A stretch of DNA of 64,000 nt from Candidatus Shapirobacteria bacterium (lineage in GTDB: Bacteria > Patescibacteriota > Microgenomatia > UBA12405), in NCBI GenBank assembly GCA_028704635.1, contig JAQWFB010000001.1, positions 5,541-69,540 on the forward strand, given 5' to 3'. Of the stretch, positions 5,162 through 26,618 are shown in pieces. Numbering within the stretch: position 1 is the stretch's first letter; each line of letters begins with the position of its first letter. The notes beneath the pieces were generated by a model. That model had not been told where the DNA came from. It did no database searches and saw nothing but the letters and a program-made list of their open reading frames with translations. The translations under genes and the position numbers were made by a program.

Positions 5162-5172
5162 ATACTGACGGA

Positions 5173-5205
5173 CAGTGTGGTCCGAACTTGGAACTTATTT
5201 AAATA
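5173..5205. repeat. left copy of a 33-bp direct repeat (att-like), cagtgtggtccgaacttggaacttatttaaata
   Basis: 31/33 identical to 23623-23655. The right copy lies inside the 3' end of the serine recombinase gene. Confidence 0.6.
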
Positions 5206-5287
5206 AAATTGATAATACAAAGCCGACTTATGGCAAATCGAAAAATAAAGCAATATAATAAACTATTATTACCCAACAAAAAAACTG

Positions 5288-7075: not shown

Positions 7076-7112
7076 ATTTTTCTCACCCCAACCTTAAAAG
7101 TTGCACTCATGG
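7076..7112. repeat. copy 1 of ttatttttctcacccc(a/g)accttaaaagttgcactcatg repeat
   Basis: Matches 26619-26656 at ~35/37 positions. Confidence 0.55.
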
Positions 7113-7128
7113 ATTATAAATCAAAAAA

Positions 7129-7152
7129 AATCCCCTAAAGCAGGGGATTTTT
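7129..7152. terminator. A-tract / hairpin (atcccct-aaagc-aggggat) / T-tract element, repeat family copy 2
   Basis: Same hairpin as 5138-5161. It lies immediately downstream of repeat 7076-7112. Confidence 0.4.
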
Positions 7153-7494
7153 GTATAAAGCGGGCCCTAGTGAACTATGTCAGCAACTACTATCAACATA
7201 ATCCAGGCTATAATTGCCTACTAGGATAGCTTTTCATGAAACATCAGGCCCCTTCCCTTTCTTATACGATTCCTATCTAAAAAACCATATTTTAATTGTG
7301 TTTTTTTACTATCCCTTACTAAGGATCCAAATCTTGCAAGTAATCTTTATTTTCCTTATAGATAAACACGACCACTTATTACTAAGTCGATTAGATAGCT
7401 TTGAGGGGGTGTGGGGAGAGTGTAGTTAGATTTTAAGGAAGTGATATTTTCAAAAAACCAAAAATTTTAAAACATGTGAATAAATTATAGTCAA

Positions 7495-8577
7495 TCAGTC
7501 ACCTATTGATTCCAGAATTGCTTTTGCAGTTAACTCTCCAAGTCTTGGAGGCACTGCATTTCCAATTTGTTTCGCAATATCACCAAAATTGCCTATAAAA
7601 ATAAAATCATCTGGAAATGTTTGTAGTCTAGCTGCTTCCCTTAAACTAATGGCCCTATCCTGTTCTGGATGTCCGAATCTACCTTTTGTAATCATACCGC
7701 ACCCTCCAGTCATGGTTGGAGATGGAGCGTCCCATCTCATTCGACCATAAACATCTTTATGTCCTGTGGTATTTTTATGACAGGTAAGAATTAATTTTTC
7801 TGGCCATGAAGTACGATCACCACCATTTTGTGGTGTATTTTTTATTCTTTGAAGGTTTATTTCTGCAAGTGATGCTGAACGGTGGAGCTTATCATAATTA
7901 TATGTTTCTCCTGCCTCGATTTTCGGTAAATCACCAATAGTGTTCTTAACCGTCATCCAAACTTTTAAAGTAGATTCTTTTTTAGCAGGATCGGCATGTG
8001 TTTGAGATAGAAAAACTGGTTCTTTTTTTCCTTTTATACCGATAATGACAACTCTTCTTCTGTGCTGTGGTACTCCATAATCAGCGGTATCGATTACATC
8101 ATATTTCAGTTTATAACCCATTTCTTTAATGTCCCCCAACACATCTTCAAGGATATTTTTGCCGATACCTTTAGCTAATCCTGGAACGTTTTCCATTACA
8201 AAAGCAACTGGTTTAACCTGTTTAATTATTTTAACCACTTCAAAAATAAGTTTGTTTCTAGGATCATTTCTTCTCTGGCTATTTCTTCGGGCATTAGAAA
8301 AACCTTGACAGGGAGGGCAGGCAATTAATACGATTTTGTCCTTTTTGGAGAGATTTCCAGCCTTCATAAGGTATTTACCGTCAACGTCACAGATGCTTTC
8401 TTTTATAACTTTACAATCCTTAAAATTAGCTTCAAATGATTTGCCTGCTATTTCATTGTTGTCAACGGCTACCCGAATATCAAAACCCATGTTTTTAAAT
8501 CCGAGAGCTGAACCTCCACACCCTGAAAATAGATCGATTACTTTATAGTTACTGTTCACATCATAAATATATAGCAT
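7495..8577 (-). CDS. DNA (cytosine-5)-methyltransferase
   Basis: Motif I DLFSGCGG, motif IV ACPPCQGFS, motif VI ENV, motif X QIGNAVPP. Confidence 0.85.
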   Translation of the reverse strand: MLYIYDVNSNYKVIDLFSGCGGSALGFKNMGFDIRVAVDNNEIAGKSFEANFKDCKVIKESICDVDGKYLMKAGNLSKKDKIVLIACPPCQGFSNARRNSQRRNDPRNKLIFEVVKIIKQVKPVAFVMENVPGLAKGIGKNILEDVLGDIKEMGYKLKYDVIDTADYGVPQHRRRVVIIGIKGKKEPVFLSQTHADPAKKESTLKVWMTVKNTIGDLPKIEAGETYNYDKLHRSASLAEINLQRIKNTPQNGGDRTSWPEKLILTCHKNTTGHKDVYGRMRWDAPSPTMTGGCGMITKGRFGHPEQDRAISLREAARLQTFPDDFIFIGNFGDIAKQIGNAVPPRLGELTAKAILESIGD

Positions 8578-8680
8578 TTCCTAGTGTAATTTCACAGACA
8601 ATTTTATTTTGATGATAAATCTAAAATTATTCCGAGGGTAATTTTACATGGTTTGATGTTACAATATTGCAATAATCAAG

Positions 8681-11317
8681 ATGAATTGGGAAAAAATTGA
8701 AGAATCCATTTTATTGTCATATCCTTTTTTCCGGAACTTAAATAGCAAAACTCAATTAACTTCCGGAGTACATCCTTTTGTGTTGTTGAATTCCTACCTA
8801 TGTATAAAATCCATTGAAACTTCACTTCCAAAAAAATTGTTAATAATTCTGCCTTTTAAAGCAGACATCGCCAAATGGGTATCTGTTGTGACAACTTTAA
8901 AACTTCTTAAGGAAGATTCCCTTGCTAACCAAGACATTAAAATAGAATATTTACCTGGGCAAAAACTACTTATCAATGGAGTTGTAGTCGAGTTTGTTGG
9001 AGAAGAAAATAATCCTTCCTACGGTTACCGCTTTATCATACGTTACTGGAACGATGATAAAAAACACCCTGGATACATTACGGACCATATACCTTGTGAA
9101 AATAACCAGATGTTTGAGATGGCAGACCAGAATTGTGAAATTAGTTCATATTCTAAGGTTGTAAAAGCATTGTTAGGTCTTGAAGAATCAAGTGTAGTTA
9201 CAAATGATATTCTTGGAATAAATTTTAGAAATACAATATCTAGATTTGAACGTAATGTAATCTTGGTATCTGGAATTGGAGAGACAAAAAGATTTGCGGA
9301 AATGAATACTGTTAACAATGTATTGGTCAGTGAGTTATTTCCGTGGGGTAAGTTGGATTACACGGGCGACACAACAGCATTATTTTATAAGGAAAAAGCA
9401 AAACCAAACTGCATCATTAGTTCCAATATGTTCGGAATCGAAGAATATATATCAAAAAAAGGAAAAAATTATGGAATTATTATTGATGGTATCGATAAAT
9501 GCACTGACAATCTCCAACAATTAGATGATTTGATCGACTCTGGAAATAGGATTGTTGTATTTTGCGACAGAAATGAACTCGATGAAGCGAATAAGTATTT
9601 AATTAATAGGGATTTCCTCGTTTGGTCATGGGATAAAAAGATGATTGCAGGGTTAACTTCAACTTTGTCTATTGGAGACATTAATAAGTCTTTCAATACC
9701 CAGTTAAAAAATTACTCTGAGTTGGGTATTAAGGTATTAAAAAGTAATAACCCAATAATTGAAGAATTAATCAATATTTCGTCTCCTGTTTTAAAAATTA
9801 ATCCAGAAGATTCAGGTCTTATTAATAAATTTAAATTCAATCTACTCTCTGCGATTAATGAAATAATTAGATTGGGATTTATACCCGACAACGAATATTT
9901 AACTAGTTTTCTAAAAAAATTGGAGGAATTAAAAAAAGAATACGGATTAATTAGCAACATGGCCAGCAATGATACTCGTGTTGGACTTACGAAAATTTTA
10001 GACATGTTAACAAATCTGAAAATTAATGATTTTGCTCACCCAGAAAGCAAAGCAAATAAAATTATTTCCTGGTTTAACAACTTGAGTGGTGACGACAAAA
10101 ATAAAAAATACATAACAATCTTTGATGACTTGAACCCCGCTCGACTTCACCAAGATCACTTCGCAAATTCAATCGATAAAGAAATAAAACTAGAAACGAT
10201 AGCTTTTGAAGATTTTATTATCTCCCACAATTTTGAAGAAGATGCCGTTATTTTTACCGGATGGCCAGGTAAAAAAAAGATGAAAATAATATCAAATATC
10301 AATGCGGCAAAAAATATGTTGTTTTTTCTGTATCCTCAGGAACAAAAATGGTTCAACTCATATATCAGAAACACCGAAAAATATAGCTTTGGAAAAAATG
10401 AACTTGATAAATTTGCGGAATATCTGGATGTACCAGTTATTGAAGAATTAAAAACAGCATTAACAGAGTACTCTGATCAAACGGAAAACATAATTGGAAT
10501 TGATGACATAACAGAGGCACAAGATACCTTATTAATAAGCTCATATTTACCAGACGATAATGAATGTAACAATCCAATACCGTCTAAATTAGTTGTTTTT
10601 AATAGAGATTATTTCTGGTACTCAACTGAGAACCATCGATTCATTGTTATTACGGATTTGATTGCTAATTGTACTGATGGACAAATAAAAACTTCAAGAC
10701 CAGAGGGTCTTCATGTGGGCGATACTGTTTTGATTAGGGAGTCAAATAAAGATTTAATCAGGGAAATTGCTGAAATTGATTTAAAAAATAGAGATGAAGA
10801 ATGGGCTATCGAAAAATCTAAAGTCTGGAAAGATGCACTGAAAACCGAATACAAAAAACAATATGAAAATATTTTTCGTTTAATCAGTGTGTTAAGAGAA
10901 GCTGGATGTAATAGACAAGTTCAAACCATTAAGCTTTGGCTCTTTGAAGATGACCGTATTGGTTTAAGGGATGAAAAGGATCTCGAATATATAGCGAAAG
11001 CAACTGGTTCAAAGGAAATGATTAATAACCTGGACAAAATTCGTGAAGCAATACATCTTGTCCGGGCAGCACATTTAAGAGCAGGTGACACACTCGCGAA
11101 AGAGCTTTTGAACCGATTGCCCGATGTTCTTAATGGTACAGGAAATAAAATCAGGTCAAGTATCGATCTTGGAGAATATGGTACAGCCTTTTTACTTAAG
11201 GTTATTGTTGTTGCCGATGACTATATTGATATCGAAAGTATTAAAGTTAATAAGTTACTAAATAAAAACAAATCAAATGATCAGACTCATACCTCCACTG
11301 TTGTCTTCAGAAAATAA
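8681..11317 (+). CDS. large hypothetical protein, first gene of the helicase/DUF1998 operon (DrmE-like by position only)
   Basis: 878 aa with no recognisable catalytic motif. The 3' end overlaps the next gene by 41 nt. Confidence 0.5.
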   Translation: MNWEKIEESILLSYPFFRNLNSKTQLTSGVHPFVLLNSYLCIKSIETSLPKKLLIILPFKADIAKWVSVVTTLKLLKEDSLANQDIKIEYLPGQKLLINGVVVEFVGEENNPSYGYRFIIRYWNDDKKHPGYITDHIPCENNQMFEMADQNCEISSYSKVVKALLGLEESSVVTNDILGINFRNTISRFERNVILVSGIGETKRFAEMNTVNNVLVSELFPWGKLDYTGDTTALFYKEKAKPNCIISSNMFGIEEYISKKGKNYGIIIDGIDKCTDNLQQLDDLIDSGNRIVVFCDRNELDEANKYLINRDFLVWSWDKKMIAGLTSTLSIGDINKSFNTQLKNYSELGIKVLKSNNPIIEELINISSPVLKINPEDSGLINKFKFNLLSAINEIIRLGFIPDNEYLTSFLKKLEELKKEYGLISNMASNDTRVGLTKILDMLTNLKINDFAHPESKANKIISWFNNLSGDDKNKKYITIFDDLNPARLHQDHFANSIDKEIKLETIAFEDFIISHNFEEDAVIFTGWPGKKKMKIISNINAAKNMLFFLYPQEQKWFNSYIRNTEKYSFGKNELDKFAEYLDVPVIEELKTALTEYSDQTENIIGIDDITEAQDTLLISSYLPDDNECNNPIPSKLVVFNRDYFWYSTENHRFIVITDLIANCTDGQIKTSRPEGLHVGDTVLIRESNKDLIREIAEIDLKNRDEEWAIEKSKVWKDALKTEYKKQYENIFRLISVLREAGCNRQVQTIKLWLFEDDRIGLRDEKDLEYIAKATGSKEMINNLDKIREAIHLVRAAHLRAGDTLAKELLNRLPDVLNGTGNKIRSSIDLGEYGTAFLLKVIVVADDYIDIESIKVNKLLNKNKSNDQTHTSTVVFRK

Positions 11318-13001
11318 AAGTAGCGGAGAGAGAAAACTATTTAATCTTTTTCTAAAAAGTGGAAATACTGATGATTGGACTGTTCTTCACTCATTAAATC
11401 TGAGTGAACATATAAATCAAATATGTGGAGAAATTGATTTTCTTGTTTTAGCCCCAAATTTAGGTATATTTTGCCTTGAGGTAAAGTCTGGGAACGTAAC
11501 ATGTCATGATGGGCTATGGATATATCGGGATAGATTTGGTGTTGACCATAAAAGCACCAAAGGTCCTTTCGTTCAAGTCAAAGATAATATGTTTAGTTTG
11601 ATCGAGTGGGTTAAAAAAAAGACTTCTAATAATCCAAAATTAATAAACATGTTATTCGGCTACGGAGTAGTATTTCCCGATGTTTCATTCAACATCGATA
11701 GTATCGAGTATGATCGATCATCCGTGTTTGACAATATGACTGGTTCTATCGAATCTTTTATCACAACTCTAGCTGAAAATACCAAAAAAAAAGAAGAGAA
11801 CTTAGGTAGAAAAAGATATTTACCATCACTAAAAGATATTGAAACTCTGGTCAGTATTCTAAGGCCTGAATTTGAAGTTTTCAGGAGCACTAAGGACATT
11901 TTAAATGATACCGAAGAAAAAATTAGTTCTTTCACGGAAGAACAATATAAATGTCTTGATTCTCTTAAAGATAATCCCCGTTGTTTATTTAATGGAGCCG
12001 CTGGAACTGGAAAGACGGTCATTGCCGTCGAATCCGTTAAAAGAAAAGTTTTTGATGAAAAGAGAGTGTTATTTATCTGTTTCAATTCTTTATTAAGTGA
12101 ATGGTTAAAATCCAGATTCACAGACAGTGAAAAAAAGTTTGTCACAATCGAAACACTTCCAGGTTATATGGAGAAAATAGCAGCCATTCCAGAATATATT
12201 AAACGCGACAACTATTATTTTGACCACGTATTACCAACAAAAGCCGCAGAATTGATTGTAAAAGACTTTAGTAAATTTGACTATCTGATCGTTGATGAGG
12301 GTCAGGACATAATTAGCGAAGTAAATTTTGCTTTTCTTGATAAGGTCTTAAAAAATGGAATAGCAAAAGGTTTCTGGGAAATTTATTGTGATATGGACCG
12401 TCAGTCATTATTTGCAAAACTATCACCAAAATTAATGAGAGAAAAAATCTCAAAATGGTCACCCAATGGTTTTGTATCTTATAAACTGAACATCAATTGC
12501 CGTAATACTAAAAATATTGCCGAGGAAATTTCTCTGGTATGCGGGTTTGAAAAAGACCAACTATTGCCAGGTAATATTGAGGGAAATCTACCGGTAAACT
12601 ATAAGTTTGTTGATCATGATCAGATTCCTTTTGAAATAGACAAAATAGTGGATTTTGTTTACTCAAAAAAGATTCCTTTAAACAGGATAACAGTGCTATC
12701 ACCAAAAAAATATCAGCTATCTGAGGCCTCCAAGATAAAAAGTAAATGTACAGTTTTAGAACGTAACAATCTATTTTCAATACCAGTCGATTCAATAACA
12801 TTTTCAACTATCGGAAAATTTAAAGGGTTGGAAAATTCTTTTATAGTTGTCACAGACTTTGATTCTATTGAAGAAGACTGTTTGGAAAAACTTTACGTCG
12901 CCATGTCTAGGGCAAAATATGGTCTATATTTGATTATGGGAAAAGAAGCCGAAAAAGATTATGATTCCATTGTTAGTAAAGTTAATAGCGTACAAAGATA
13001 A
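11277..13001 (+). CDS. NERD nuclease-related domain fused to UvrD/PcrA-like SF1 helicase core
   Basis: NERD: GEIDFLVLAPNLGIFCLEVKSG. Walker A NGAAGTGKTV, Walker B LIVDEGQDI, C-terminal LYVAMSRAKYGLYLI (UvrD_C motif). Confidence 0.7.
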   Translation: MIRLIPPLLSSENKSSGERKLFNLFLKSGNTDDWTVLHSLNLSEHINQICGEIDFLVLAPNLGIFCLEVKSGNVTCHDGLWIYRDRFGVDHKSTKGPFVQVKDNMFSLIEWVKKKTSNNPKLINMLFGYGVVFPDVSFNIDSIEYDRSSVFDNMTGSIESFITTLAENTKKKEENLGRKRYLPSLKDIETLVSILRPEFEVFRSTKDILNDTEEKISSFTEEQYKCLDSLKDNPRCLFNGAAGTGKTVIAVESVKRKVFDEKRVLFICFNSLLSEWLKSRFTDSEKKFVTIETLPGYMEKIAAIPEYIKRDNYYFDHVLPTKAAELIVKDFSKFDYLIVDEGQDIISEVNFAFLDKVLKNGIAKGFWEIYCDMDRQSLFAKLSPKLMREKISKWSPNGFVSYKLNINCRNTKNIAEEISLVCGFEKDQLLPGNIEGNLPVNYKFVDHDQIPFEIDKIVDFVYSKKIPLNRITVLSPKKYQLSEASKIKSKCTVLERNNLFSIPVDSITFSTIGKFKGLENSFIVVTDFDSIEEDCLEKLYVAMSRAKYGLYLIMGKEAEKDYDSIVSKVNSVQR

Positions 13002-16000
13002 ATGCCTTTTAAAGACCAATTAATCGATTTTCTTAAAAAGGGTCTAATGGGACCAAATCCAACAGAGGGTAATGTTCAGGAAAACGGCGAAGAAATAATA
13101 ATAGGTAGCAATCCTTGTGATAGATATTCACTTGGAGTTCTTTTCCCGCAAAGTTCAAATACTCCTAAAAAAGATGAAATTGAGGATATTGGAAGTGAAG
13201 AAGCAACTGAAGAAGTAGTTAATCTCGCAAATTCCATGGCTCCTTCTGCTATGGGATTTAGTTGTGGATTAATATCCCCATTTAATGATCTGATAATAGA
13301 AATAAAGGCTGGGACTTATCAAAAAGTCGATGATTATGAGAGTTCTGGAAGATACGCTTTTTTAAGGCATCAGATAAATTATGAAATAAAAATCAGCAAA
13401 GAATCATTATCAGCATGTGATGGTATTCTGCATTTTCCCATAAAAAACGGTGATGAGGAAACAAAATTAGGTTTAATACTTTTGAGAAGAAAAATTGGAT
13501 CCTTAACTCATGGAGAAGACCTGTTTACATTTTCTTTAGTCAATTATAATAACGAAGGACGTGATGAAAAATGTTTTTTCCAATGTCAGTTTATCGTTAA
13601 GTCTGTTGACGGAAAACCCTGTTTTGCACCTTACCCCGATATTTCTGAGGCTTTTGGCAACGACTATGACCGTCTTTTAAATGCATATCTGTATCGGGAT
13701 AAAAAGACTTTCGCAATAGGGCATGGATGCTCTCCGCTATGGAATGACACAAAGAACGATGTCTCAGAAATATGTGCAAATGCAATACCTTCATATGAAA
13801 TGAAACCAGTTATCCCTACAACTATTGAAGGTTGTTCACTTGGAATGTATGAAATGAGTGATGAAGGTAAAGTTGAAAATATTTTTGAAAAGATAGAAAC
13901 ACTTTGCCGTGAATATGAAAATTGGATTAATGGTCAACAAAGAATAATTGAAGTAGAAACAAATATAAAGTATAAAGAAATCGGTCAAAAAAACATCCTT
14001 AATTGTAAGATGTGTCTTGATAGAATGCGTGAGGGATTTACATTGTTGAAAACCGATTCGGTAGTATTGGAAGCGTTCCGTTTAATGAATCGGGCTATGT
14101 TGTTACAACAATTGCATTACAAAATTGATTTAAGGATTTGGGATGATAATGACGACATTGTCCAAGTGAAAATGCCTAAGTTGAACGACAAAAGCACCTG
14201 GCCTGACAAAGTTGGTAATTGGTATCCGTTTCAGTTGGCTTTTATCTTAATGAACTTGGACTCTATGTCTGATCCCAGCAGTAAATATCGGGAAATGGTC
14301 GACCTGATTTGGTTTCCTACTGGAGGCGGAAAGACTGAAGCATATTTAGGCTTGACTGCTTTTACTATCTTTCTAAAGAGATTGACTGATAAAAATGATG
14401 ACGGAACAACTGTTTTAATGCGATATACCCTGAGACTACTTACAAATCAGCAATTTCAAAGAGCGTCATCCTTAATATGTTCATGCGAATACATTAGGTC
14501 ATCAATTCCACAAAAATTGGGTGAAACAAAAATTACTATTGGCCTTTGGGCAGGTAGTGGTTTAACTCCTAATACTAGACCAGAAGCAGTCAGTAAATTT
14601 AAAAAATTGCTACAGGGACAGGATGATGTAAATTGTTTTTTAATCGATAAATGTCCATGGTGCGGTGCTCAAATGGGTTTTATTAAGAAAAAAAACATAA
14701 AAGCTAAAGGTTATAGGCAAATGTTACACCCGTCAACTGTTATTTTTCGCTGCTCAGACCAGGAATGTTTTTTTTCACATGAGGAAAGTCCTCTACCTTT
14801 ATTAGTAATTGATGAAGATATTTATGATAATCCTCCATCGTTGGTTATCGGAACAATAGATAAATTTGCAATGTTAGTTTGGAAACCAGAATCTGTACGA
14901 AAAATATTTGGATTTAGGGATAACGGAAGAGTTTTGCCGCCATCATTAATAATCCAAGATGAATTGCATTTGATTTCTGGCCCCCTTGGGTCGATTGCTG
15001 GAATGTACGAAGTATTAATTGAAGAATTATGCTCCCAGAAAAATAGTAGTGGAATAATAAAACCTAAAATTGTTGCCTCTACTGCTACTGTTAGTAGGGC
15101 CAAAGAACAGGTGAATGCCCTTTATGGCCGAGACGTTTTTATTCTTCCGCCACCAGCAACTAAAGCAAATGATTCTTTTTTTGCTAAAGAAGCCGTCGAT
15201 TTGCCAGGAAGAACTTATTTAGGCATCTATGCTCCATCGTTAAGTCATGCAACCGCTCATGTCAGAACGGTTTCTTTCCTATTGGAGGGAGTAAAATATA
15301 TACCAGCAGATCCGACTGTTAAAAACTATTATTGGACTTTATTGGATTACTTTAATAGTCTTCGGGAACTTGGGCATGCCAAAACAAGGATATCAGCAGA
15401 TATTCCAGAGTATCTGAATATTGTATATAGTTATCTTGGCCTGTTTCATGCTTCAATAGAGGAAAAGGCTAAACGAAGATTTATTAATCCAAGCAAATGT
15501 CCAGAGTTAACCAGTCGTGTAGACGAAATTTCTAAAGCTCTTAATGATCTAAAAGAACCATATTTATTGGAAAATTCTAAAGCATTGGATATTTGTCTTT
15601 GTACTAATATGATTTCCGTTGGCATTGATATTGATAGGTTAGGTTTAATGACTGTAGCTGGACAACCAAAGACAACAGCCGAATATATCCAAGCCACCAG
15701 CCGTGTTGGAAGAAGTAGTAAGGGACCAGGTTTGGTTGTAGCTATATTTAATACCCCTAAACCAAGAGATAGATCTCACTATGAAAATTTTCTCTCTTAC
15801 CACTCAAAAATTTATAGCTTTGTTGAGCCTACCAGCATCACTCCATTTTCCAGACCAGCAAGAGAAAGAGCTTTGCATGCACTTTTAATCGGATATATCA
15901 GATATTTTGGTTCCACAGACAATCTTTTATCTCCAAAAAACATTAGTGATCAGAATATATTTACCCGTTTTACAGAAATGATTAAAAATAGAGTTATAAA

Positions 16001-16265
16001 AATTGACCCAGATGAAATGGAAGGATGTTTAACAGAAATTGATAAATTAAAACGGCGTTTGTTTAGATTACATGCCGAAAAATACTACGGTAACGGTATA
16101 GAAAGATGGGCAAATTGTCTTATCTATCCCTATGGTGTAGTTCCTCCAGATTCTGATACAAGAAACAGAATGTGGCCCACACTTCAGTCGATGAGAAATG
16201 TAGACCTGACTTGTCAGATAGAACCAGATACTTATTATTTAGATCCTCCAGATGTCACAATATAG
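13002..16265 (+). CDS. DrmA-like DExH-box SF2 helicase with internal Cys4 insertion
   Basis: Motif I WFPTGGGKTEAYL, motif II IIQDELHLISG, motif III STAT, motifs V/VI GIDIDRLG...YIQATSRVGRS. A CPWCGAQ...FRCSDQEC zinc knuckle lies between motifs I and II. The start abuts the previous stop. Confidence 0.7.
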   Translation: MPFKDQLIDFLKKGLMGPNPTEGNVQENGEEIIIGSNPCDRYSLGVLFPQSSNTPKKDEIEDIGSEEATEEVVNLANSMAPSAMGFSCGLISPFNDLIIEIKAGTYQKVDDYESSGRYAFLRHQINYEIKISKESLSACDGILHFPIKNGDEETKLGLILLRRKIGSLTHGEDLFTFSLVNYNNEGRDEKCFFQCQFIVKSVDGKPCFAPYPDISEAFGNDYDRLLNAYLYRDKKTFAIGHGCSPLWNDTKNDVSEICANAIPSYEMKPVIPTTIEGCSLGMYEMSDEGKVENIFEKIETLCREYENWINGQQRIIEVETNIKYKEIGQKNILNCKMCLDRMREGFTLLKTDSVVLEAFRLMNRAMLLQQLHYKIDLRIWDDNDDIVQVKMPKLNDKSTWPDKVGNWYPFQLAFILMNLDSMSDPSSKYREMVDLIWFPTGGGKTEAYLGLTAFTIFLKRLTDKNDDGTTVLMRYTLRLLTNQQFQRASSLICSCEYIRSSIPQKLGETKITIGLWAGSGLTPNTRPEAVSKFKKLLQGQDDVNCFLIDKCPWCGAQMGFIKKKNIKAKGYRQMLHPSTVIFRCSDQECFFSHEESPLPLLVIDEDIYDNPPSLVIGTIDKFAMLVWKPESVRKIFGFRDNGRVLPPSLIIQDELHLISGPLGSIAGMYEVLIEELCSQKNSSGIIKPKIVASTATVSRAKEQVNALYGRDVFILPPPATKANDSFFAKEAVDLPGRTYLGIYAPSLSHATAHVRTVSFLLEGVKYIPADPTVKNYYWTLLDYFNSLRELGHAKTRISADIPEYLNIVYSYLGLFHASIEEKAKRRFINPSKCPELTSRVDEISKALNDLKEPYLLENSKALDICLCTNMISVGIDIDRLGLMTVAGQPKTTAEYIQATSRVGRSSKGPGLVVAIFNTPKPRDRSHYENFLSYHSKIYSFVEPTSITPFSRPARERALHALLIGYIRYFGSTDNLLSPKNISDQNIFTRFTEMIKNRVIKIDPDEMEGCLTEIDKLKRRLFRLHAEKYYGNGIERWANCLIYPYGVVPPDSDTRNRMWPTLQSMRNVDLTCQIEPDTYYLDPPDVTI

Positions 16266-18093
16266 AAAAAAAAGACCAGTAAGACAGGGACAACTTATAT
16301 CACCATGGGGTGTAGGACAAATGATACCTTTTCCAGAAGGGGACTCTCTCATGATAGCTGGACTTGATGCTTGGCAGGAAAAATATGGACATCCAGGAGA
16401 AGAGAAATACTTTGTCCAGGAGTTAAGATTGGAGAAAAGATTAGGGGTTAAACATTTTAGATTACCCCCTAATTTTATAGAGGAAGAAAGGGATCAGGCC
16501 AAGACCGTGCCTGCGATCAGATTTCCACAATGGCACTATTGCAAACACTGTGGTTCTATGGAGAAGTTAAGTATTTTTAGTACCCAATTACCCCACTGTA
16601 AAGGATTGCCATATGATGATATAAGTTGTCAAAATACACCTGAAAAAAGAAGGCTAAAGATGATACCAGTCCGCTTTGTAGTTATCTGTCCTGATGGACA
16701 TATCGATGATTTTCCATTTATGGAATGGGTGCATAGTAAAAGTAAAATGGTAGAAACCCCAGATTGTCGGTTAAGATACAAAATTAGAAGTGCTGGAAGT
16801 TCACTCGGTGCCATCAAATTAATCTGTAGTTGTGGAGCCAAGTCCAGTATGCATGGGTCATTTAATAAAGGGGGCTTAAAAAATATTTTAAAATGTAAAG
16901 GGTATAAACCGTGGCTAGGTAAAATTGAAGAATTCGATTCCGAACCGTGTGATAAGGAGTTGACTGTTGCTCAAAAAGGCGGATCAAACGTATATTTTCC
17001 AAATGTAATAAGCTCAATTTATATTCCCAGCGAATTTAGACCTGAGATTCATGAAAAATACCTTGATGAATATTGGAGTTACTTGACTGGGGTTTTAAAA
17101 AATGACGTATTAGATTTTGAAAGGTTTAAAAACGTTGCACTTAAAAACGGATTAGATCCCCAGGAGTTTTATGATAATGGGTTAAAACGCTATAAGGAAG
17201 CCACTAATTACGATGAGAGCCTTACAGAAAACGATATCGAAAAGGAAATTAGAAAACAAGAATATATTTACCTCACAGGAAATAAAAATATTGACAACGA
17301 TTATTTGACTCAAAAAACGTCACCTATTGATGGTTATAGTAAATTAATCCAAAGTTTTTGCAACCAAATATCTCTTGTTCACCGTCTTAAGGAAACCAGA
17401 GTTTTTACAGGATTTTCAAGATTAAACTCTAATGATGGTAAAACTTTATCTCAAAGAAAAAGTGAATTGTCATTAAAAAAAATTGATTGGCTTCCAGCTA
17501 TAACTGTTAGCGGTGAAGGTATTTTTCTAAAATTTAAAGACAGCCTAATCAAAACGTGGGAAACAAATGCTCTTGTAAAAGAAAGGGCAGAAATTATTAA
17601 TAACAACTTTGCTAATTATGCCCGCCAATTCAATTTACCCGAAAGAACAGTTAGCCCTGGATACATAATGGTCCACACTTTTTCCCATATTTTAATTAAT
17701 GAACTTAGCCTTGTTTGTGGATATGGAAGTTCGTCTTTAAGAGAGAGGATATATTTTAATGAAGATCAGGGCGAAAGTTATTTTGGTTTGTTGATCTACA
17801 CAGCATCTGGAGATTCTGAAGGATCTCTTGGTGGCCTAGTAAAACAGGGGTTACCCAGTCGACTAAACGAAATGATAATGTCCGCCTTAAATAAAGCAAG
17901 TTGGTGCTCGGTCGATCCAATCTGTATTGAAAGCCGTGGTCAAGGATTGGGATCGTGCAATTTAGCCGCATGCCACAACTGTGTCCTTCTACCAGAAACA
18001 TCCTGCGAACAATCAAATAGATTACTCGACCGTGCCATGTTAATCGGTACATTGGAAAACCATGAGATTGGTTTCTTTTCTAATATGGAATAA
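16252..18093 (+). CDS. DUF1998-family protein (DrmB-like), N-terminal multi-Cys region
   Basis: C-terminal WCSVDPICIESRGQGLGSCNLAACHNCVLLPETSCEQSNRLLDRAMLIG is the DUF1998 hallmark. There are 14 nt of overlap with the upstream helicase. Confidence 0.7.
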   Translation: MSQYRKKRPVRQGQLISPWGVGQMIPFPEGDSLMIAGLDAWQEKYGHPGEEKYFVQELRLEKRLGVKHFRLPPNFIEEERDQAKTVPAIRFPQWHYCKHCGSMEKLSIFSTQLPHCKGLPYDDISCQNTPEKRRLKMIPVRFVVICPDGHIDDFPFMEWVHSKSKMVETPDCRLRYKIRSAGSSLGAIKLICSCGAKSSMHGSFNKGGLKNILKCKGYKPWLGKIEEFDSEPCDKELTVAQKGGSNVYFPNVISSIYIPSEFRPEIHEKYLDEYWSYLTGVLKNDVLDFERFKNVALKNGLDPQEFYDNGLKRYKEATNYDESLTENDIEKEIRKQEYIYLTGNKNIDNDYLTQKTSPIDGYSKLIQSFCNQISLVHRLKETRVFTGFSRLNSNDGKTLSQRKSELSLKKIDWLPAITVSGEGIFLKFKDSLIKTWETNALVKERAEIINNNFANYARQFNLPERTVSPGYIMVHTFSHILINELSLVCGYGSSSLRERIYFNEDQGESYFGLLIYTASGDSEGSLGGLVKQGLPSRLNEMIMSALNKASWCSVDPICIESRGQGLGSCNLAACHNCVLLPETSCEQSNRLLDRAMLIGTLENHEIGFFSNME

Positions 18094-18274: not shown

Positions 18275-19471
18275 TTACTTATCCTCATAATCCTTTAATG
18301 TGTACTCTTCTTGATATTCTTTGATTTTGTTTAAAATTTTATTTTGACTGTCTACGGCGTAGACTTTTACAATTCCCATCGTACCAGGAGATGGTGCTCC
18401 TCCACCTGATAATTGTGATTTAACTACTATATTATTTCCAATCACCTTAACTCTAATGTCAGTTCCATCTTCAATTAAAAGATTTGTATTATCATCGACT
18501 ATAGTTGATATGGATAACGTTTGACCGTGACAGCTTGAACAACCTTCTCCATTTAAAAACAAAGCTTGTAGGGTTAATTTTCCAACAGTAAATATTTGAC
18601 TTTTTAAAATTACTTCCCTATATTCATTAACTTTAATTAAAGTTTTGTTTTGATTATCTACTTCGTAGACTTTTACATTAATTGCGTCTTCTCCTGTTCC
18701 CACCATGTCTGATTTGAATCTAACCTCAATAGTATTTTTGTCTACTCTAACATTGATTCCATAACCTTTTTCTTTTAAAAACAAATTATCTTTATCAAAA
18801 ATATATAGTTCCTGGGAAACACTACTAGAAATAGGTATCGTCACTAAACTTTCTAGTTTTGACTCATCAACAACTAATTTAGTTTTATTCAATTTCCATA
18901 GACTCTGATTACCTACCAACTTTGAAATTAATGAATAGCTGTTTAAATATTTACTATCTTCCTTAGACAAGGTGTCATCACGGCGTGGATTGATGTTTTC
19001 CTTAATCTCTCCAGTTATTGGATTCACTATTAAACGGTAAGAAGCCGAATAACTTCCACGGTCTGGTTCATTGTTAGACAACTCAATATTTATTCCATCT
19101 ACTACCTTGGCCGAAATTAAACTAGCATTGGCCTGACCCTGTTGGAATAGTTTGGGATAATTATCCTTTCTTACAGTTAAATCAGGCTTAAAATTGTTCT
19201 CACTTTTATTACCCTCAGTGGGATTAATAAAAATAGAACCTTCTGTTAATTGAATTATTAAAACTCCTTTAGGAGTATCTAGGGAAACACTATAATCCAA
19301 TGGTTTGCTTTTATCCTCAGGAACTACAGTTTTTGAATTGTTTTCAATATCAGTAATAACTTCTCTTGGAATGTGTCGACTTATCTTTTCTCTGACTTTA
19401 CTAAAAAAACCAGCAACTAAACAAAAAACAAAGAATAGTATTAGAATTGAAAATAATTTATTTTTAGTCAT
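18275..19471 (-). CDS. secreted/lipid-anchored hypothetical protein
   Basis: N-terminal signal/TM LFSILILFFVFCLVAGFF, then a beta-rich sequence with no catalytic motif. Confidence 0.4.
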   Translation of the reverse strand: MTKNKLFSILILFFVFCLVAGFFSKVREKISRHIPREVITDIENNSKTVVPEDKSKPLDYSVSLDTPKGVLIIQLTEGSIFINPTEGNKSENNFKPDLTVRKDNYPKLFQQGQANASLISAKVVDGINIELSNNEPDRGSYSASYRLIVNPITGEIKENINPRRDDTLSKEDSKYLNSYSLISKLVGNQSLWKLNKTKLVVDESKLESLVTIPISSSVSQELYIFDKDNLFLKEKGYGINVRVDKNTIEVRFKSDMVGTGEDAINVKVYEVDNQNKTLIKVNEYREVILKSQIFTVGKLTLQALFLNGEGCSSCHGQTLSISTIVDDNTNLLIEDGTDIRVKVIGNNIVVKSQLSGGGAPSPGTMGIVKVYAVDSQNKILNKIKEYQEEYTLKDYEDK

Positions 19472-21555: not shown

Positions 21556-22050
21556 ATGATTAAAATTAATAAAAAAGGCTGCACCTGGATTCCAAACTAT
21601 TGGATTGTCGGTGATGACATTTCTGACGCCGCTTTTCGAACTCTTTCAATCATTAGAAGTTACAACTTTGATCAAATTTACCCATCCGTAAAAAGAATTG
21701 CTGAAAGAAGAGGTAAGAGTAGAAGTACCATTTTTCTCCACCTTAAAGAACTAAAGGAGAAGAAATATATTACAACCAAAAGATCAGGATACTCTACTTC
21801 AAATATATACAAATTCAGTAGTCCAGAAAATTGGACTAATGAATCAAACCCGACATCAAATAATGATACTTCTATCGTCCAGGAAACTGGTCTTCAGTCG
21901 TCCAATAATCCAGACCCTAATAATAGTCTTAATAAAGAATTAAAAAATAGTCAAAATCCTTTAAGGGGAGAAGAATTAGAAAAGGCTAAAGAAAATCTTT
22001 TTAATAAACTCCCATGGGTAAACAAAAACAAAAATCATCTTAAAAAGTAA
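21556..22050 (+). CDS. winged-helix DNA-binding protein (replication/excision accessory-like)
   Basis: IAERRGKSRSTIFLHLKELKEKKYITTKR wHTH. Confidence 0.35.
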   Translation: MIKINKKGCTWIPNYWIVGDDISDAAFRTLSIIRSYNFDQIYPSVKRIAERRGKSRSTIFLHLKELKEKKYITTKRSGYSTSNIYKFSSPENWTNESNPTSNNDTSIVQETGLQSSNNPDPNNSLNKELKNSQNPLRGEELEKAKENLFNKLPWVNKNKNHLKK

Positions 22051-22091: not shown

Positions 22092-23699
22092 TTGGAATAT
22101 TCGGTTATATCAATTAATATCAATATGAAAACAAATCAAGACAATTCGTTAAAGTATTGCCAATACTGTCGAAAATCATCCGAGAGTAAAGAAAAACAGG
22201 CCTTATCGATTCCTGATCAAATCAAGGTTTGTGGAGAATATGCTGTCAAAAACGAACTAAATATTGTTGCAAAAATAGAAGAATCAAAATCTTCTTACAA
22301 ACCCCATATCAGACCTGAATTCGATAAAATTTTAAAAATGATTGGCGATAAAAAAATTGATGCAATTCTGACATGGAAACTTGATCGACTATGCCGTAAT
22401 CCAGAAGAAGGTGGAATTCTACTTCAATTACTTCAAGACGGAAAAATAAAAGAAATTAGGACACCAATGGGAGATATTTATACCCAAGAAAGTGATCATT
22501 TAATTCTCCAAATTCATTTTGGAATGGCAAATCAATATTCACGAGCAATCAGTCAAAACGTTCGTCGTGCTCTCGTATGTAAAGCCGAAAGGGGAGAGTT
22601 TACTAAACCTGCTCCACTTGGCTATGAAGGAATCGGTGAAAGTAAAAGTCGTTTGATTAAACCTCATAAATTTGAAGCACCACTTCTAGTTCAAGCTTAT
22701 GAATTAGCTAAATCTGGTCGGTACTCACTAAGTAATATTCAAAAATATTTAAAAGATAACGGTTTAAAAACCAAAAGAGGGAAAGATTTAAGCAAAAGCC
22801 ATTTATATCGAATCCTTACCAGTTCAATTTATTATGGTGTTTTCAACCATAATGGCATTGCTTATCAAGGTAACTATGAACCACTTATCAATAAGTCAAC
22901 CTTTGATGAAGTTCAAATCGCTTTGGGTGTTAGGTCTAAGCCCAAGAAATTAATTTGGGAGTCGGTTTACAATGGCTTATTCTTCTGTCCAGATTGTGGC
23001 TGTGCCATAACCACTGTAAACAAAAAGAAGTTAATTAAAAAAACTAATAAATATGAAACTTACACTTATCTAGTGTGTACTCATCGAAAGGGAAATTGCC
23101 AACAAAAACCAATATCTGCAGATGATTTTGATAAACAAATTATGGCAAAAATCGGGCCACTTAAACTTACCGAAAGAAAATGGGAATTAGCATTAAAACT
23201 ATTTCGAGCCAAAAATGCCAATCAAAATCAAACCCAATCTAAATTTATTGATAACCTTCATTTGCAACTCAAGATTCATCAAGAAAAATTAAATCGACTG
23301 ATTAATATGAGAGCAGGAGACGAAATTACTGCTGAAGAGTTCAAAGAACAAAAATTAATTATCCTTAATGAACAAACACGAATCAGTGAGGCAATCAATC
23401 GATACAACGAAACCAATCAAAATTGGTTGGAACTGTCAGAAAACTTCATAAATAAGGTATTCTTAGCCAAAAAAATATTATCCGATGGTTTACCAGAAGA
23501 AAAAAAGAAACTGATTGATGAGGTCGGTCGGAACTTATTTCTAAACAATAAAAAAGTGGAACTTACCTTAAAAGAACCATACATAGCCATGACAAATCCA
23601 GCTATTTCTAATAATATGCGGGCAATGTGGTCCGAACTTGGAACTTATTTAGATAGGAATGATACAATCAAATATGAATTGTCCACATTGTTTACATAG
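22092..23699 (+). CDS. large serine recombinase (integrase), element 1
   Basis: Resolvase N-domain YCRKSSESKEKQ (Ser nucleophile motif) and LDRLCRN. Recombinase domain, zinc ribbon CPDCGC...C, then a coiled-coil tail. The 3' end spans the right att-like repeat. Confidence 0.85.
   Translation: MEYSVISININMKTNQDNSLKYCQYCRKSSESKEKQALSIPDQIKVCGEYAVKNELNIVAKIEESKSSYKPHIRPEFDKILKMIGDKKIDAILTWKLDRLCRNPEEGGILLQLLQDGKIKEIRTPMGDIYTQESDHLILQIHFGMANQYSRAISQNVRRALVCKAERGEFTKPAPLGYEGIGESKSRLIKPHKFEAPLLVQAYELAKSGRYSLSNIQKYLKDNGLKTKRGKDLSKSHLYRILTSSIYYGVFNHNGIAYQGNYEPLINKSTFDEVQIALGVRSKPKKLIWESVYNGLFFCPDCGCAITTVNKKKLIKKTNKYETYTYLVCTHRKGNCQQKPISADDFDKQIMAKIGPLKLTERKWELALKLFRAKNANQNQTQSKFIDNLHLQLKIHQEKLNRLINMRAGDEITAEEFKEQKLIILNEQTRISEAINRYNETNQNWLELSENFINKVFLAKKILSDGLPEEKKKLIDEVGRNLFLNNKKVELTLKEPYIAMTNPAISNNMRAMWSELGTYLDRNDTIKYELSTLFT
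23623..23655. repeat. right copy of 33-bp direct repeat (att-like)
   Basis: caatgtggtccgaacttggaacttatttagata matches 5173-5205. Confidence 0.6.
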
Positions 23700-26600: not shown

Positions 26601-26618
26601 TTTTCTTTAGGTTAAATT

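What the first reader, a model, noticed from the sequence alone, without database searches (positions are those of the whole stretch)
7495..18093. DISARM class 2 / Druantia-like defence module with a non-canonical gene complement
A divergent C5 cytosine methyltransferase (7495-8577, minus) sits next to a translationally coupled four-gene operon. The genes overlap by 41 and 14 nt or directly abut. Gene 1 is an 878-aa orphan protein. Gene 2 is a NERD+UvrD SF1 helicase. Gene 3 is a 1087-aa DExH SF2 helicase. Gene 4 is a 613-aa protein ending in the DUF1998 hallmark (CxxDPxC...AACHxC...ETSCExxNxxLDR). A helicase followed by a separate DUF1998 protein is the DrmA/DrmB core of DISARM, and class 2 DISARM pairs this core with a 5mC methyltransferase and a large DrmE of unknown function. 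The same helicase-DUF1998 combination fused into one protein is Druantia DruE, and Druantia type II also has a cytosine methyltransferase. Here there is no PLD-family DrmC. An extra NERD-UvrD helicase is inserted in the operon, and gene 1 has no recognisable domains. The architecture therefore does not match a described class cleanly. It also sits inside an integrative element in a reduced, CPR-like genome. Spot GC counts are ~37% in the operon versus ~30% in flanking backbone, which fits acquired DNA.
Basis: partly seen in the sequence, partly recalled or inferred. Interest (0 to 1): 0.85.

Follow-up and report, generated by a model that had tools for sequence, protein, structure and literature searches.

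The report
DISARM defence operon with NERD nuclease-helicase
This is an intact DISARM-type anti-phage system in a candidate-phyla-radiation bacterium, of a widespread but apparently undescribed subtype in which the usual phospholipase-D nuclease gene is absent and a NERD nuclease-helicase gene sits inside the operon, making that protein a testable candidate for DISARM's missing DNA-cutting component.

Summary
The five ORFs exist exactly as described: overlaps of 41 and 14 nt and one abutting junction. The reading "DISARM class 2" is largely right; "Druantia-like" and "gene 1 is an orphan" are wrong. Gene 1 is a full-length DrmE (NCBIfam DrmE_fam, 2.6e-76). Gene 3 is DrmA (PADLOC 1.7e-212; PDB 7s9v 4e-140). 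Gene 4 is DrmB (NCBIfam 1.3e-139). The methylase is a standard C5 Dcm-type enzyme. No PLD/DrmC is present in the 64-kb window.

The NERD-SF1 helicase is not a one-off insertion. Its six sampled homologues (38-43% identity) all lie between DrmE and a DrmA-like helicase. Among 77 informative DrmA-seeded genome loci, about 47 have it next to DrmA/DrmB, across at least eight phyla. None of the loci examined has a DrmC, except one deliberately fetched class 1 reference. Its sequence divergence tracks that of DrmA (rho 0.72), and its nuclease and ATPase motifs are conserved.

The locus is therefore an ordinary member of a common DrmE-NERDhelicase-DrmA-DrmB-C5 methylase architecture that I could not find described in the literature. 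It probably lies on an 18.4-kb serine-recombinase island. The GC argument is weak. Novelty: new variant of a known kind. Interest: moderate.

The parts
7495..8577 (-). C5 cytosine DNA methyltransferase (DrmMII-type), transcribed divergently from the operon
   Evidence: Pfam DNA_methylase 6.2e-72, full length. PADLOC MTase_II 1.2e-100, DruM2 1.8e-92, DrmMII 3.5e-56. NCBIfam dcm 6.8e-58. Motifs DLFSGCGG, PPCQGFS and ENV are visible. It is 56% identical to the methylase that directly follows DrmB in a Patescibacteria relative (L003/L005).
8578..8680 (.). 103-bp divergent intergenic region between the methylase and drmE; presumed promoter region (inferred only)
   Evidence: Position only. The consensus promoter scan was no better than shuffled sequence (45 sites found, 51.6 expected).
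8681..11317 (+). DrmE family protein, 878 aa
   Evidence: NCBIfam DrmE_fam NF038316 2.6e-76, 257.6 bits (cut-off 80), model positions 17-838 of 838. Pfam DrmE_C 8.7e-9. NCBI names it 'DrmE family protein'. The AF2 model is poor (pLDDT 63). Its weak Foldseek hits are all SF2 helicase cores, which is tentative.
11277..13001 (+). NERD (PD-(D/E)xK nuclease) + SF1 helicase, 574 aa; member of a DISARM-linked subfamily
   Evidence: Pfam NERD 4e-12 and UvrD_C_2. PADLOC RTasNERD-Hel 4.6e-44 and 'NERD+UvrD' 2.2e-17. AF2 pLDDT 88.7. Foldseek hits: SLFN11/14, Upf1, Dna2, RecD2, UvrD. E52, D54, E68, K70, GxAGxGKT(240-247), DExQD(340-344), R409 and R545 are at least 90% conserved in 43 DISARM-linked homologues. 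The same synteny is seen in 6 of 6 homologue contexts.
13002..16265 (+). DrmA, SF2 DExH helicase, 1087 aa
   Evidence: PADLOC DrmA 1.7e-212. NCBIfam DISARM_DrmAS 3e-262, 873 bits, just under the equivalog cut-off of 950. PDB 7s9v_A Serratia DrmA 4.4e-140.
16252..18093 (+). DrmB, DUF1998/MZB protein, 613 aa
   Evidence: NCBIfam DrmB_fam 1.3e-139, 466.8 bits (cut-off 240). PADLOC DrmB 2.1e-78. Pfam MZB 1.7e-8. PDB 7s9v_B DrmB 3e-84 over the full length.
5169..5214 (.). Left copy of a 46-nt direct repeat; putative att site of an 18.4-kb island (context)
   Evidence: 87% identical to 23619-23664, with a 26-nt near-perfect core and unrelated flanks.
23619..23664 (.). Right copy of the 46-nt direct repeat, inside the 3' end of the recombinase ORF (context)
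22092..23699 (+). Large serine recombinase/integrase at the right end of the putative island (context)
   Evidence: Pfam Resolvase, Recombinase and Zn_ribbon_recom. PHROG integrase 1.5e-71.
21556..22050 (+). HTH_36 replication-initiator-like protein of the putative island (context)
   Evidence: Pfam HTH_36 1.2e-9. PHROG replication initiation protein 6.3e-14.

Best explanation
The locus is an intact methylation-based DISARM defence system of class 2 type: a C5 methylase, DrmE, DrmA and DrmB. It belongs to a widespread, conserved subtype that has no PLD nuclease DrmC. Instead it carries a dedicated NERD (PD-(D/E)xK) + SF1 helicase gene, translationally coupled between drmE and drmA.

Proposed mechanism:
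1. The methylase marks host DNA with 5mC. This is inferred from the family.
2. The DrmA:DrmB complex loads on unmethylated invading DNA through 5' single-stranded ends. This has been shown for Serratia DrmAB and is inferred here from homology.
3. The NERD-helicase acts as the in-operon motor-nuclease that degrades the DNA engaged by DrmAB, taking the effector role assigned to DrmC in canonical systems. This rests on synteny, co-variation and conserved catalytic motifs and has not been shown.
4. DrmE, possibly a degenerate helicase-like scaffold, is required as in Bacillus class 2 DISARM. Its role is unknown.

The whole module is probably cargo of an 18.4-kb serine-recombinase integrative island in a Candidatus Shapirobacteria genome.
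For: Family assignments:
- DrmA: PADLOC 1.7e-212, PDB 7s9v 4.4e-140.
- DrmB: NCBIfam 1.3e-139, PDB 3e-84.
- DrmE: NCBIfam 2.6e-76, full length.
- C5 methylase: 6e-72.

No DrmC:
- tblastn with a class 1 DrmC finds nothing in the window or in any of the loci held at that point (L001-L093) except the DrmC source locus itself, L090.
- The only HKD-motif match in an ORF of at least 100 codons in the window is a chance hit in DrmB.
- No HKD motif occurs in the ORFs after DrmB, and ten such ORFs have no PLD Pfam hit.

The NERD-helicase is conserved in this position:
- 6 of 6 homologue contexts show DrmE -> NERD-helicase -> DrmA-like -> DUF1998 protein with 4-20 nt overlaps. One of the six is cut by the contig end within the DrmA-like gene. 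The contexts come from Bacillota, Patescibacteria, Chloroflexota and metagenomes.
- Of 80 DrmA-seeded genome loci, 40 have it immediately upstream of DrmA (41 counting L031) and 6 immediately downstream of DrmB, out of 77 informative loci. Among the 37 informative closest loci the figure is about 34.
- In a NERD-helicase-seeded metagenome sample, all 17 best loci have DrmA and/or DrmB adjacent, while distant NERD helicases do not.
- In L049 a canonical DrmE (685 bits) is followed by DrmA-DrmB-NERDhelicase. The NERD-helicase therefore occupies DrmC's usual slot.

Co-variation: pairwise distances of the NERD-helicase correlate with those of DrmA (rho 0.72) and DrmB (0.69). DrmA against DrmB gives 0.84.

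Catalytic competence:
- The ExD...ExK motif and Walker A/B are at least 90% conserved and invariant in 110 homologues.
- The confident model resembles nuclease-helicases and SF1 cores.

Literature:
- DrmC is dispensable and often missing, and the DISARM nuclease is 'a mystery' (PMC9142583).
- RmuC nucleases embedded in Pseudomonas DISARM-like operons give a precedent for alternative nucleases (PMC10270631).

Island.
Against: - No experiment exists on any member of this subtype. Defence activity, the methylation motif, NERD nuclease activity and any physical link to DrmAB are all inferred.
- Three close relatives (L007, L009, L018) have DrmE-DrmA-DrmB without the NERD-helicase, so it can be lost.
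- Its position varies between upstream of DrmA and downstream of DrmB, and in L070 it accompanies a different DISARM-like class. It therefore behaves as a module.
- More distant NERD-SF1 helicases occur outside DISARM. PADLOC files similar proteins under other candidate systems.
- The distance correlations are inflated by shared phylogeny, and the NJ tree has no support values.
- I could not read Ofir et al. 2018. I therefore cannot exclude that such genes were already noted there.
Confidence: 0.6

Rival explanations
1. This is a class 2 DISARM that has simply lost the dispensable drmC. The NERD-SF1 helicase is an autonomous single-gene defence system (Nhi-like or Shield-like) that is merely 'embedded' in the operon for co-regulation. 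It would work independently of DrmA, DrmB and DrmE.
For: - DISARM, BREX and type I RM operons frequently carry embedded, same-strand defence genes (bioRxiv 10.1101/2024.01.29.577857).
- PADLOC lists NERD+UvrD-type proteins as separate candidates (RTasNERD-Hel, C3a187).
- NERD occurs in Nhi-like and Mokosh systems (PMC10952713).
- Distant NERD helicases are found without DISARM.
- The gene's position varies, and it is absent in L007, L009 and L018.
Against: - Embedded genes are normally sporadic. Here one subfamily keeps the same slot in about 60% of DrmA-seeded loci and about 90% of the closest ones, across at least eight phyla.
- All 6 sampled close homologues and all 17 best metagenomic homologues are DISARM-linked.
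- Its divergence tracks that of DrmA and DrmB.
- It is translationally coupled on both sides.
Confidence: 0.27
2. The NERD-helicase is an integral DISARM component but not the effector nuclease. It could instead process DNA ends to create the 5' single-stranded substrate that DrmAB senses, or act as a sensor or regulator. In that case degradation would be done by DrmAB stalling or by host nucleases.
For: - DrmAB needs 5' overhang ssDNA, and blocking by translocation has been proposed as sufficient (PMC9142583).
- Structural neighbours include Dna2 and RecD2, which are end-processing enzymes.
- The gene usually lies upstream of DrmA, not in DrmC's slot.
Against: No data separate this reading from the effector model. 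The nuclease motif is strictly conserved, which fits either role.
Confidence: 0.1
3. The module is Druantia-like, or it is a DNA-repair MrfA/YprA-type helicase next to an unrelated type II methylase, and not a DISARM system.
For: - The methylase scores well on PADLOC DruM2 (1.8e-92).
- DUF1998 is shared with DruE, DpdJ and MrfA (PMC12458937).
Against: - The helicase and the DUF1998 protein are separate genes, which is the DISARM hallmark (PMC12458937).
- DruE3 scores only E = 0.0047 and DpdJ 4.5e-7, against DrmA 1.7e-212.
- No other Druantia gene family was returned for the six module ORFs or the ten flanking ORFs scanned.
- DrmE is present.
- A 56%-identical methylase overlaps the DrmB stop codon in a relative.
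Confidence: 0.02

Closest known systems
DISARM class 2 (Bacillus paralicheniformis type: DrmE, DrmA, DrmB, DrmC, DrmMII; Ofir et al. 2018, as summarised in bioRxiv 10.1101/2021.12.28.474362 and PMC9252829)
   Same: DrmA and DrmB are separate adjacent genes. A full-length DrmE and a C5 cytosine methylase are present. The genes are tightly packed on one strand and lie in a defence-island context.
   Different: There is no PLD DrmC anywhere in the window. An additional conserved NERD + SF1 helicase gene lies between drmE and drmA. The methylase is divergently transcribed here, whereas it is co-directional in most relatives. DrmA scores just below NCBI's equivalog cut-off (873 against 950).
DISARM class 1 (Serratia sp. 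SCBI; Trichormus plasmid C locus L090: DrmD, DrmMI, DrmA, DrmB, DrmC)
   Same: The DrmA:DrmB core is homologous to the solved Serratia complex (4.4e-140 and 3e-84).
   Different: There is no SNF2 DrmD, no N6-adenine DrmMI and no DrmC. DrmE and the NERD-helicase are present instead.
Pseudomonas DISARM-like operons with an embedded RmuC nuclease (ShdA homologues; PMC10270631)
   Same: A non-PLD nuclease gene sits inside a DISARM-like operon. This raises the same question of accessory component versus separate system.
   Different: The nuclease family differs (NERD PD-(D/E)xK fused to an SF1 helicase, not membrane-anchored RmuC). The RmuC case is restricted to Pseudomonas, whereas the NERD-helicase arrangement spans at least eight phyla.
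Nhi / Nhi-like nuclease-helicase immunity proteins and Dna2-type nuclease-helicases
   Same: Both share a one-polypeptide architecture of an N-terminal nuclease domain plus an SF1 helicase. NERD is listed for Nhi-like systems (PMC10952713). Dna2, Upf1 and SLFN11/14 are structural neighbours.
   Different: No Nhi family was returned by the PADLOC scan at E <= 0.01. Those proteins act alone, whereas this subfamily is found essentially only inside DrmE/DrmA/DrmB operons.
ARMADA type II (ArmA-D; PMC12458937)
   Same: It is a YprA-family helicase system that also needs a UvrD/GajB-like SF1 helicase fused to an N-terminal nuclease-type domain. All four of its genes are essential, which gives a precedent for an SF1 helicase-nuclease partner of a YprA helicase.
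   Different: In ARMADA the YprA helicase is fused to DUF1998. The methylase is PglX-like (N6A). The SF1 partner carries a RelE-like RNase domain, not NERD. There is no DrmE.

Membership tests
DISARM (core) | DrmA: SF2 helicase of the YprA/DrmA family | tested here: met
   PADLOC DrmA 1.7e-212. PDB 7s9v_A 4.4e-140. NCBIfam DrmAS 873 bits, slightly under the equivalog cut-off of 950.
DISARM (core) | DrmB: DUF1998/MZB protein encoded by a separate gene directly after DrmA | tested here: met
   NCBIfam DrmB_fam 466.8 bits (cut-off 240). Pfam MZB above cut-off. PDB 7s9v_B 3e-84. 14-nt overlap with drmA.
DISARM (core) | DrmC: PLD-domain nuclease (third gene of the 'core triplet'; bioRxiv 10.1101/2021.12.28.474362) | tested here: not met
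   No tblastn hit to the DrmC of L090. No HKD-motif ORF in the 64-kb window. No PLD hit among the Pfam and PADLOC scans of the module and the flanking ORFs scanned. The literature says drmC is dispensable and often missing (PMC9142583).
DISARM (core) | An associated DNA methyltransferase | tested here: met
   The C5 methylase lies 103 bp upstream and is divergent. In relatives a homologue is co-directional and in places overlaps drmB. Methylation activity was not tested.
DISARM class 2 | DrmMII: C5 cytosine methylase (pfam00145) | tested here: met
   PF00145 6.2e-72. PADLOC DrmMII models down to 3.5e-56, although generic MTase_II models score higher.
DISARM class 2 | DrmE present | tested here: met
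   NCBIfam DrmE_fam 2.6e-76, full length. Pfam DrmE_C.
DISARM class 2 | [quoted passage not shown] | tested here: not met
   Four of the five are present and DrmC is absent.
DISARM class 2 | Protection against phages and self-protection by methylation | not testable with these tools
   This needs heterologous expression and methylome sequencing.
DISARM-linked NERD-SF1 helicase subfamily (defined here) | About 560-610 aa NERD + SF1 helicase with ExD...ExK and Walker A/B motifs, encoded adjacent to DrmA/DrmB | tested here: met
   38-43% identity to 119 homologues. Motifs conserved. Synteny in 6 of 6 and 17 of 17 sampled contexts.
Druantia | DruE: large helicase fused to DUF1998, with DruA-D or DruH-type partner genes | tested here: not met
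   The helicase and DUF1998 are split into two genes. DruE3 scores only E = 0.0047. No other Druantia component was found among the 16 proteins scanned.
Nhi / Nhi-like | Stand-alone nuclease-helicase matching Nhi profiles | tested here: inconclusive
   No Nhi family is listed by PADLOC at E <= 0.01. I did not verify which Nhi models that library holds. The architecture is similar, but the genomic context is an operon rather than a stand-alone gene.

The most novel reading that the evidence does not exclude
DrmE-NERDhelicase-DrmA-DrmB plus a C5 methylase may be a distinct, so far unnamed DISARM class (effectively a 'class 3'). It would be the predominant architecture among this branch of DrmA relatives, from CPR bacteria to Actinomycetota. 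In this reading the NERD-SF1 motor-nuclease is the obligatory DNA-degrading effector recruited by DrmAB. That would answer, for this class, the open question of which nuclease executes DISARM restriction.
Probability: 0.4. Interest if true: 0.65.

Novelty: new variant of a known kind. Interest (0 to 1): 0.55.

Why it matters
DISARM is a well-known defence system whose killing step is unresolved. The annotated nuclease DrmC is dispensable and often absent, and the structural study of DrmAB calls the source of DNA degradation 'a mystery' (PMC9142583).

A large, phylogenetically broad set of DISARM operons has no DrmC. These operons always carry a catalytically intact NERD nuclease fused to an SF1 motor, and that protein co-varies with DrmA and DrmB. 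This gives a concrete candidate effector that can be tested by mutation.

The result also shows that rule-based annotators requiring DrmC (PADLOC type II), and NCBI's equivalog cut-offs, leave many such loci unnamed. An example is the Rhodococcus pROB02 locus, where the genes are annotated 'helicase-related protein', 'NERD domain-containing protein' and 'DUF1998 domain-containing protein'.

Finally, it documents a complete five-gene, 10.6-kb defence system on a mobile island in a reduced CPR genome. Similar systems occur in two other Patescibacteria genomes (L003/L005 and L044).

Tried and rejected
- The genome-contig scan with the single DrmA protein found no relative. Repeating it with a four-sequence alignment worked.
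- Two homologue searches for DrmE, one with the single sequence and one with a 27-sequence profile, returned only six proteins. The DrmE structure prediction therefore had a six-row alignment and is poor (pLDDT 63). Its Foldseek hits to SF2 helicase cores (TM about 0.2) are only a hint.
- The promoter/terminator scan of the module gave fewer hits than shuffled sequence.
- Rfam found only tRNAs.
- A tblastn search of plasmids with a canonical-type DrmE found nothing. I therefore could not retrieve a canonical DrmE+DrmC class 2 locus for direct comparison.
- Ofir et al. 2018 (PMC5739279) is not held.
- GC content as evidence of horizontal acquisition was rejected as too weak.
- The Druantia reading was rejected on profile scores and gene architecture.
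- My idea that NCBIfam 'DrmAS' marks class 2 was rejected. The class 1 Trichormus DrmA scores highest on it.
- Literature searches for a named third DISARM class or 'DrmF' returned nothing relevant.
- The YprA-family survey (PMC12458937) mentions NERD only for TALON systems, and its supplements do not mention NERD or DrmE at all.

Full report
**Observation**

The ORF map reproduces the finding exactly:
- 7495-8577 (-), 360 aa
- 8681-11317 (+), 878 aa
- 11277-13001 (+), 574 aa
- 13002-16265 (+), 1087 aa
- 16252-18093 (+), 613 aa

The overlaps are 41 nt and 14 nt, and one junction abuts. No intrinsic terminator above chance lies inside the four-gene block.

**Identity of the proteins**

- **Methylase.** It is an ordinary Dcm-type C5 enzyme (Pfam DNA_methylase 6.2e-72; NCBIfam dcm). 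It carries motifs I, IV and VI.
- **Gene 1.** It is not an orphan. It matches NCBIfam DrmE_fam end to end (2.6e-76, 257.6 bits against a cut-off of 80) and Pfam DrmE_C above threshold. NCBI already calls the identical protein 'DrmE family protein' from a Candidatus Shapirobacteria MAG (lineage).
- **Gene 3.** It is DrmA (PADLOC 1.7e-212; solved Serratia DrmA 7s9v 4.4e-140). Its NCBIfam DrmAS score of 873 bits is just under the equivalog cut-off of 950.
- **Gene 4.** It is DrmB (NCBIfam 1.3e-139; 7s9v_B 3e-84 over the full length; Pfam MZB/DUF1998).
- **Gene 2.** It is a NERD + SF1 helicase (Pfam NERD 4e-12 and UvrD_C_2). Its best PADLOC models are generic NERD-helicase candidates (RTasNERD-Hel 4.6e-44 and 'NERD+UvrD' 2.2e-17).
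- **Druantia.** The only signals are a DruE3 hit at E = 0.0047 and the generic cross-hit of the methylase to DruM.

**No DrmC**

A DrmC reference taken from a canonical class 1 locus (Trichormus plasmid C, L090) has no tblastn match in the window. It also has no match in any of the loci held at that point (L001-L093), apart from L090 itself. The only HxKxxxxD match in an ORF of at least 100 codons in the window is a chance hit within DrmB.

The locus therefore has four of the five genes in PADLOC's 'type II DISARM' rule (PMC9252829). It lacks one gene of the 'core triplet' as defined in the literature (bioRxiv 10.1101/2021.12.28.474362). The same literature says drmC is dispensable and often missing (PMC9142583).

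**Is the NERD-helicase an accident of this locus?**

No. Several independent samples agree.

- The family search returned 2,700 proteins at E <= 1e-10. The best 119 non-self hits are 38-46% identical (nearly all 38-43%), and all but one are full length.
- I looked up six of them, from Paenibacillus, Patescibacteria, Chloroflexota, Lihuaxuella, a Clostridia MAG and a JGI metagenome. In all six the gene lies between a DrmE_C protein and a DrmA-like gene, followed by an MZB protein. One locus, L085, is cut by the contig end within the DrmA-like gene. The overlaps are 4-20 nt, and a C5 methylase lies nearby in the five loci not cut by a contig end.
- A DrmA-seeded scan of one genome per species gave 80 loci. 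Gene labelling used tblastn and blastp.
  - The NERD-helicase lies immediately upstream of DrmA in 40 loci (41 counting L031).
  - It lies immediately downstream of DrmB in 6 loci.
  - It is absent in 32 loci. Three of these are truncated contigs, and most of the rest form an actinobacterial, mostly Streptomyces, subgroup with a different gene set.
  - Among the 37 informative loci closest to the window, about 34 have it.
- The carriers include Patescibacteria, Saccharibacteria, Bacteroidota, Acidobacteriota, Bacillota, Pseudomonadota, Actinomycetota, Verrucomicrobiota and Chloroflexota. A mobilizable Rhodococcus plasmid also carries the arrangement.
- A NERD-helicase-seeded metagenome sample gave the reciprocal result. 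All 17 best loci (at least 180 bits) carry DrmA and/or DrmB next to it. NERD helicases below about 130 bits do not.
- There is therefore a DISARM-dedicated subfamily inside a larger NERD-SF1 family. The larger family has 17,967 representatives at E <= 1e-3, and more than 150 50%-identity clusters score at least 463 bits.

**DrmE is also conserved upstream**

A profile built from 27 DrmE sequences finds DrmE upstream of the NERD-helicase in 37 loci. In some Verrucomicrobiota, Acidobacteriota and Actinomycetota it finds only a split C-terminal half.

**No PLD after DrmB**

None of the ORFs after DrmB in these loci has an HKD motif. Ten of them scanned against Pfam are variable cargo, including IS200, DUF4365, AspBHI/Mrr and NucS-like proteins, and none is a PLD. 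In L049 a canonical DrmE (685 bits) is followed by DrmA, DrmB and then the NERD-helicase, which is DrmC's usual position.

**Co-variation and catalytic integrity**

- Across 43 loci, pairwise distances of the NERD-helicase correlate with those of DrmA (Spearman 0.72) and DrmB (0.69). The DrmA-DrmB value is 0.84. These values are inflated by shared ancestry, but they are what one module inherited together would give.
- An unsupported NJ tree of 86 DrmA sequences places the class 1/DrmC locus on a long outgroup branch. NERD-bearing loci spread over most of the remaining clade, with sporadic losses.
- The PD-(D/E)xK residues E52, D54, E68 and K70 are at least 90% conserved in the 43 DISARM-linked proteins. 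So are Walker A (G240...GKT247), Walker B (DE341xQD344) and the arginines R409 and R545. Most of these residues are invariant in 110 homologues.
- The AF2 model is confident (pLDDT 88.7). Its PDB neighbours are SF1 helicases, several of them fused to nucleases: SLFN11/14, Upf1, nsp13, Dna2, RecD2 and UvrD.

**Mechanism**

Shown elsewhere and transferred here by homology:
- DrmA:DrmB loads on 5'-overhang single-stranded DNA.
- It is auto-inhibited by a trigger loop.
- Methylated DNA dampens its ATPase (PMC9142583).
- In Bacillus class 2 DISARM, drmA, drmB and drmE are essential and drmMII protects self DNA.

Inferred here: the NERD-SF1 protein supplies the nuclease step in this DrmC-less subtype.

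Alternatives are given as rivals:
- It may be an autonomous embedded system, as proposed generally for genes nested in DISARM.
- The RmuC/ShdA homologues in Pseudomonas DISARM operons leave the same question open.
- It may be an end-processing helper rather than the effector.

ARMADA type II offers a precedent. There a YprA helicase system requires a UvrD-like helicase with an N-terminal nuclease-type domain.

DrmE remains unexplained. The low-confidence model (pLDDT 63) gives only weak, though uniformly SF2-helicase-like, fold hits. The sequence lacks a Walker A motif.

**Context**

Immediately left of the methylase lie two more defence candidates:
- a ThsB-like TIR protein (PADLOC 2e-82);
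- a small membrane protein matching candidate PDC-M50A (2.7e-44).

To the right lie unknown ORFs, a replication-initiator-like HTH protein and a large serine recombinase. A PD-T7-4-like DUF4145 protein follows.

A 46-nt direct repeat occurs at 5169-5214 and 23619-23664. It is 87% identical, has a 26-nt near-perfect core and has unrelated flanks. It brackets exactly the ThsB pair, the DISARM module and the recombinase. An 18.4-kb integrative island is therefore plausible but unproven, since no empty site was examined. GC is only marginally higher in the operon (34.5% against 31.3%).

**Novelty**

Within the searchable library I found no paper that links a NERD or SF1 helicase with DISARM. The 2025 YprA survey notes 'many uncharacterized DISARM-like classes'. 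It mentions NERD only for the rare TALON systems. The original DISARM paper could not be read, so prior mention in its supplements cannot be excluded.

**Verdict**

The window's locus is a typical member of a common, conserved but apparently undescribed variant of class 2 DISARM. The individual proteins are already annotated in public databases. The interesting content is the family-level pattern and the hypothesis it supports about DISARM's missing nuclease.

Noticed in passing
window 5834-6454 (-) and 6454-6972 (-): A ThsB-like TIR protein (PADLOC ThsB1 2e-82, full length) overlaps by one base a 172-aa predicted membrane protein that matches phage-defence candidate PDC-M50A (2.7e-44). This is a second candidate defence pair next to the DISARM methylase.
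   Followed up: partly
window 5169-5214 and 23619-23664: A 46-nt direct repeat (87% identical; core TGTGGTCCGAACTTGGAACTTATTTA) with unrelated flanks. The right copy lies inside the 3' end of the serine recombinase ORF. These may be the attL/attR sites of an 18.4-kb island.
   Followed up: partly
window 7066-7111 and 26611-26656; also 5134-5164 and 7125-7155: A second 46-nt direct repeat pair (87% identical). Its right copy appears, by eye in the alignment, to form the left arm of a longer hairpin (about 26620-26700). In addition, a 31-nt terminator-like hairpin is duplicated at 94% identity. The intervals interlock with the first repeat pair. No Rfam family matches. Unexplained.
   Followed up: partly
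window 23659-24354 (+): A DUF4145 protein matching PADLOC PD-T7-4 (7.3e-17) lies directly after the recombinase.
   Followed up: no
window 18275-19471 (-): A 398-aa ORF convergent with drmB has internal DNA repeats (18307-18371 / 18613-18677). It has no hit in Pfam, NCBIfam, PADLOC or PHROGs and no homologue in the related loci.
   Followed up: partly
L062 2983-15069 (Streptomyces) and similar loci L051-L083; L070: In actinobacterial (mostly Streptomyces) DrmA-DrmB loci, DrmA is preceded by a 1,600-1,850-aa protein and a roughly 640-aa helicase. In the representatives scanned (L062, L070) the large protein has a sacsin-like ATPase N-terminus plus an SF2 helicase, and the smaller one is UvrD-like. 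Usually there is no methylase within 10 kb. This is another DISARM-like class.
   Followed up: partly
L091 5286-13228 (Bacillus plasmid), L048, L092 4018-13213 (Rhodococcus pROB02): In some Bacillota and Actinomycetota loci the DrmE slot is filled by two ORFs (about 210-330 aa plus about 505 aa). This occurs with the NERD-helicase (L092) or without it (L091, L048). RefSeq annotates all these genes generically rather than as DISARM.
   Followed up: partly
L001/L002 3166-10013 (Paenibacillus melissococcoides): The drmE gene is broken into three pieces. A reverse-transcriptase (RVT_1, group II intron-like) gene and a DDE transposase are inserted between them. A second transposase lies between the 645-aa unknown ORF that follows DrmB and the methylase. 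This copy is probably decaying.
   Followed up: no
L003 18094-18516, L004 4253-4684, L087 17669-18109, L091, L092: Very-short-patch repair (Vsr) endonuclease genes recur next to the C5 methylase of these DISARM loci, as expected for 5mC systems. No vsr gene is visible near the window's methylase.
   Followed up: no
L090 6865-8848 (Trichormus plasmid C): A canonical class 1 DISARM has an ATP-binding protein plus a DUF4435 protein embedded between drmMI and drmA. This is an example of the 'embedded system' phenomenon.
   Followed up: no
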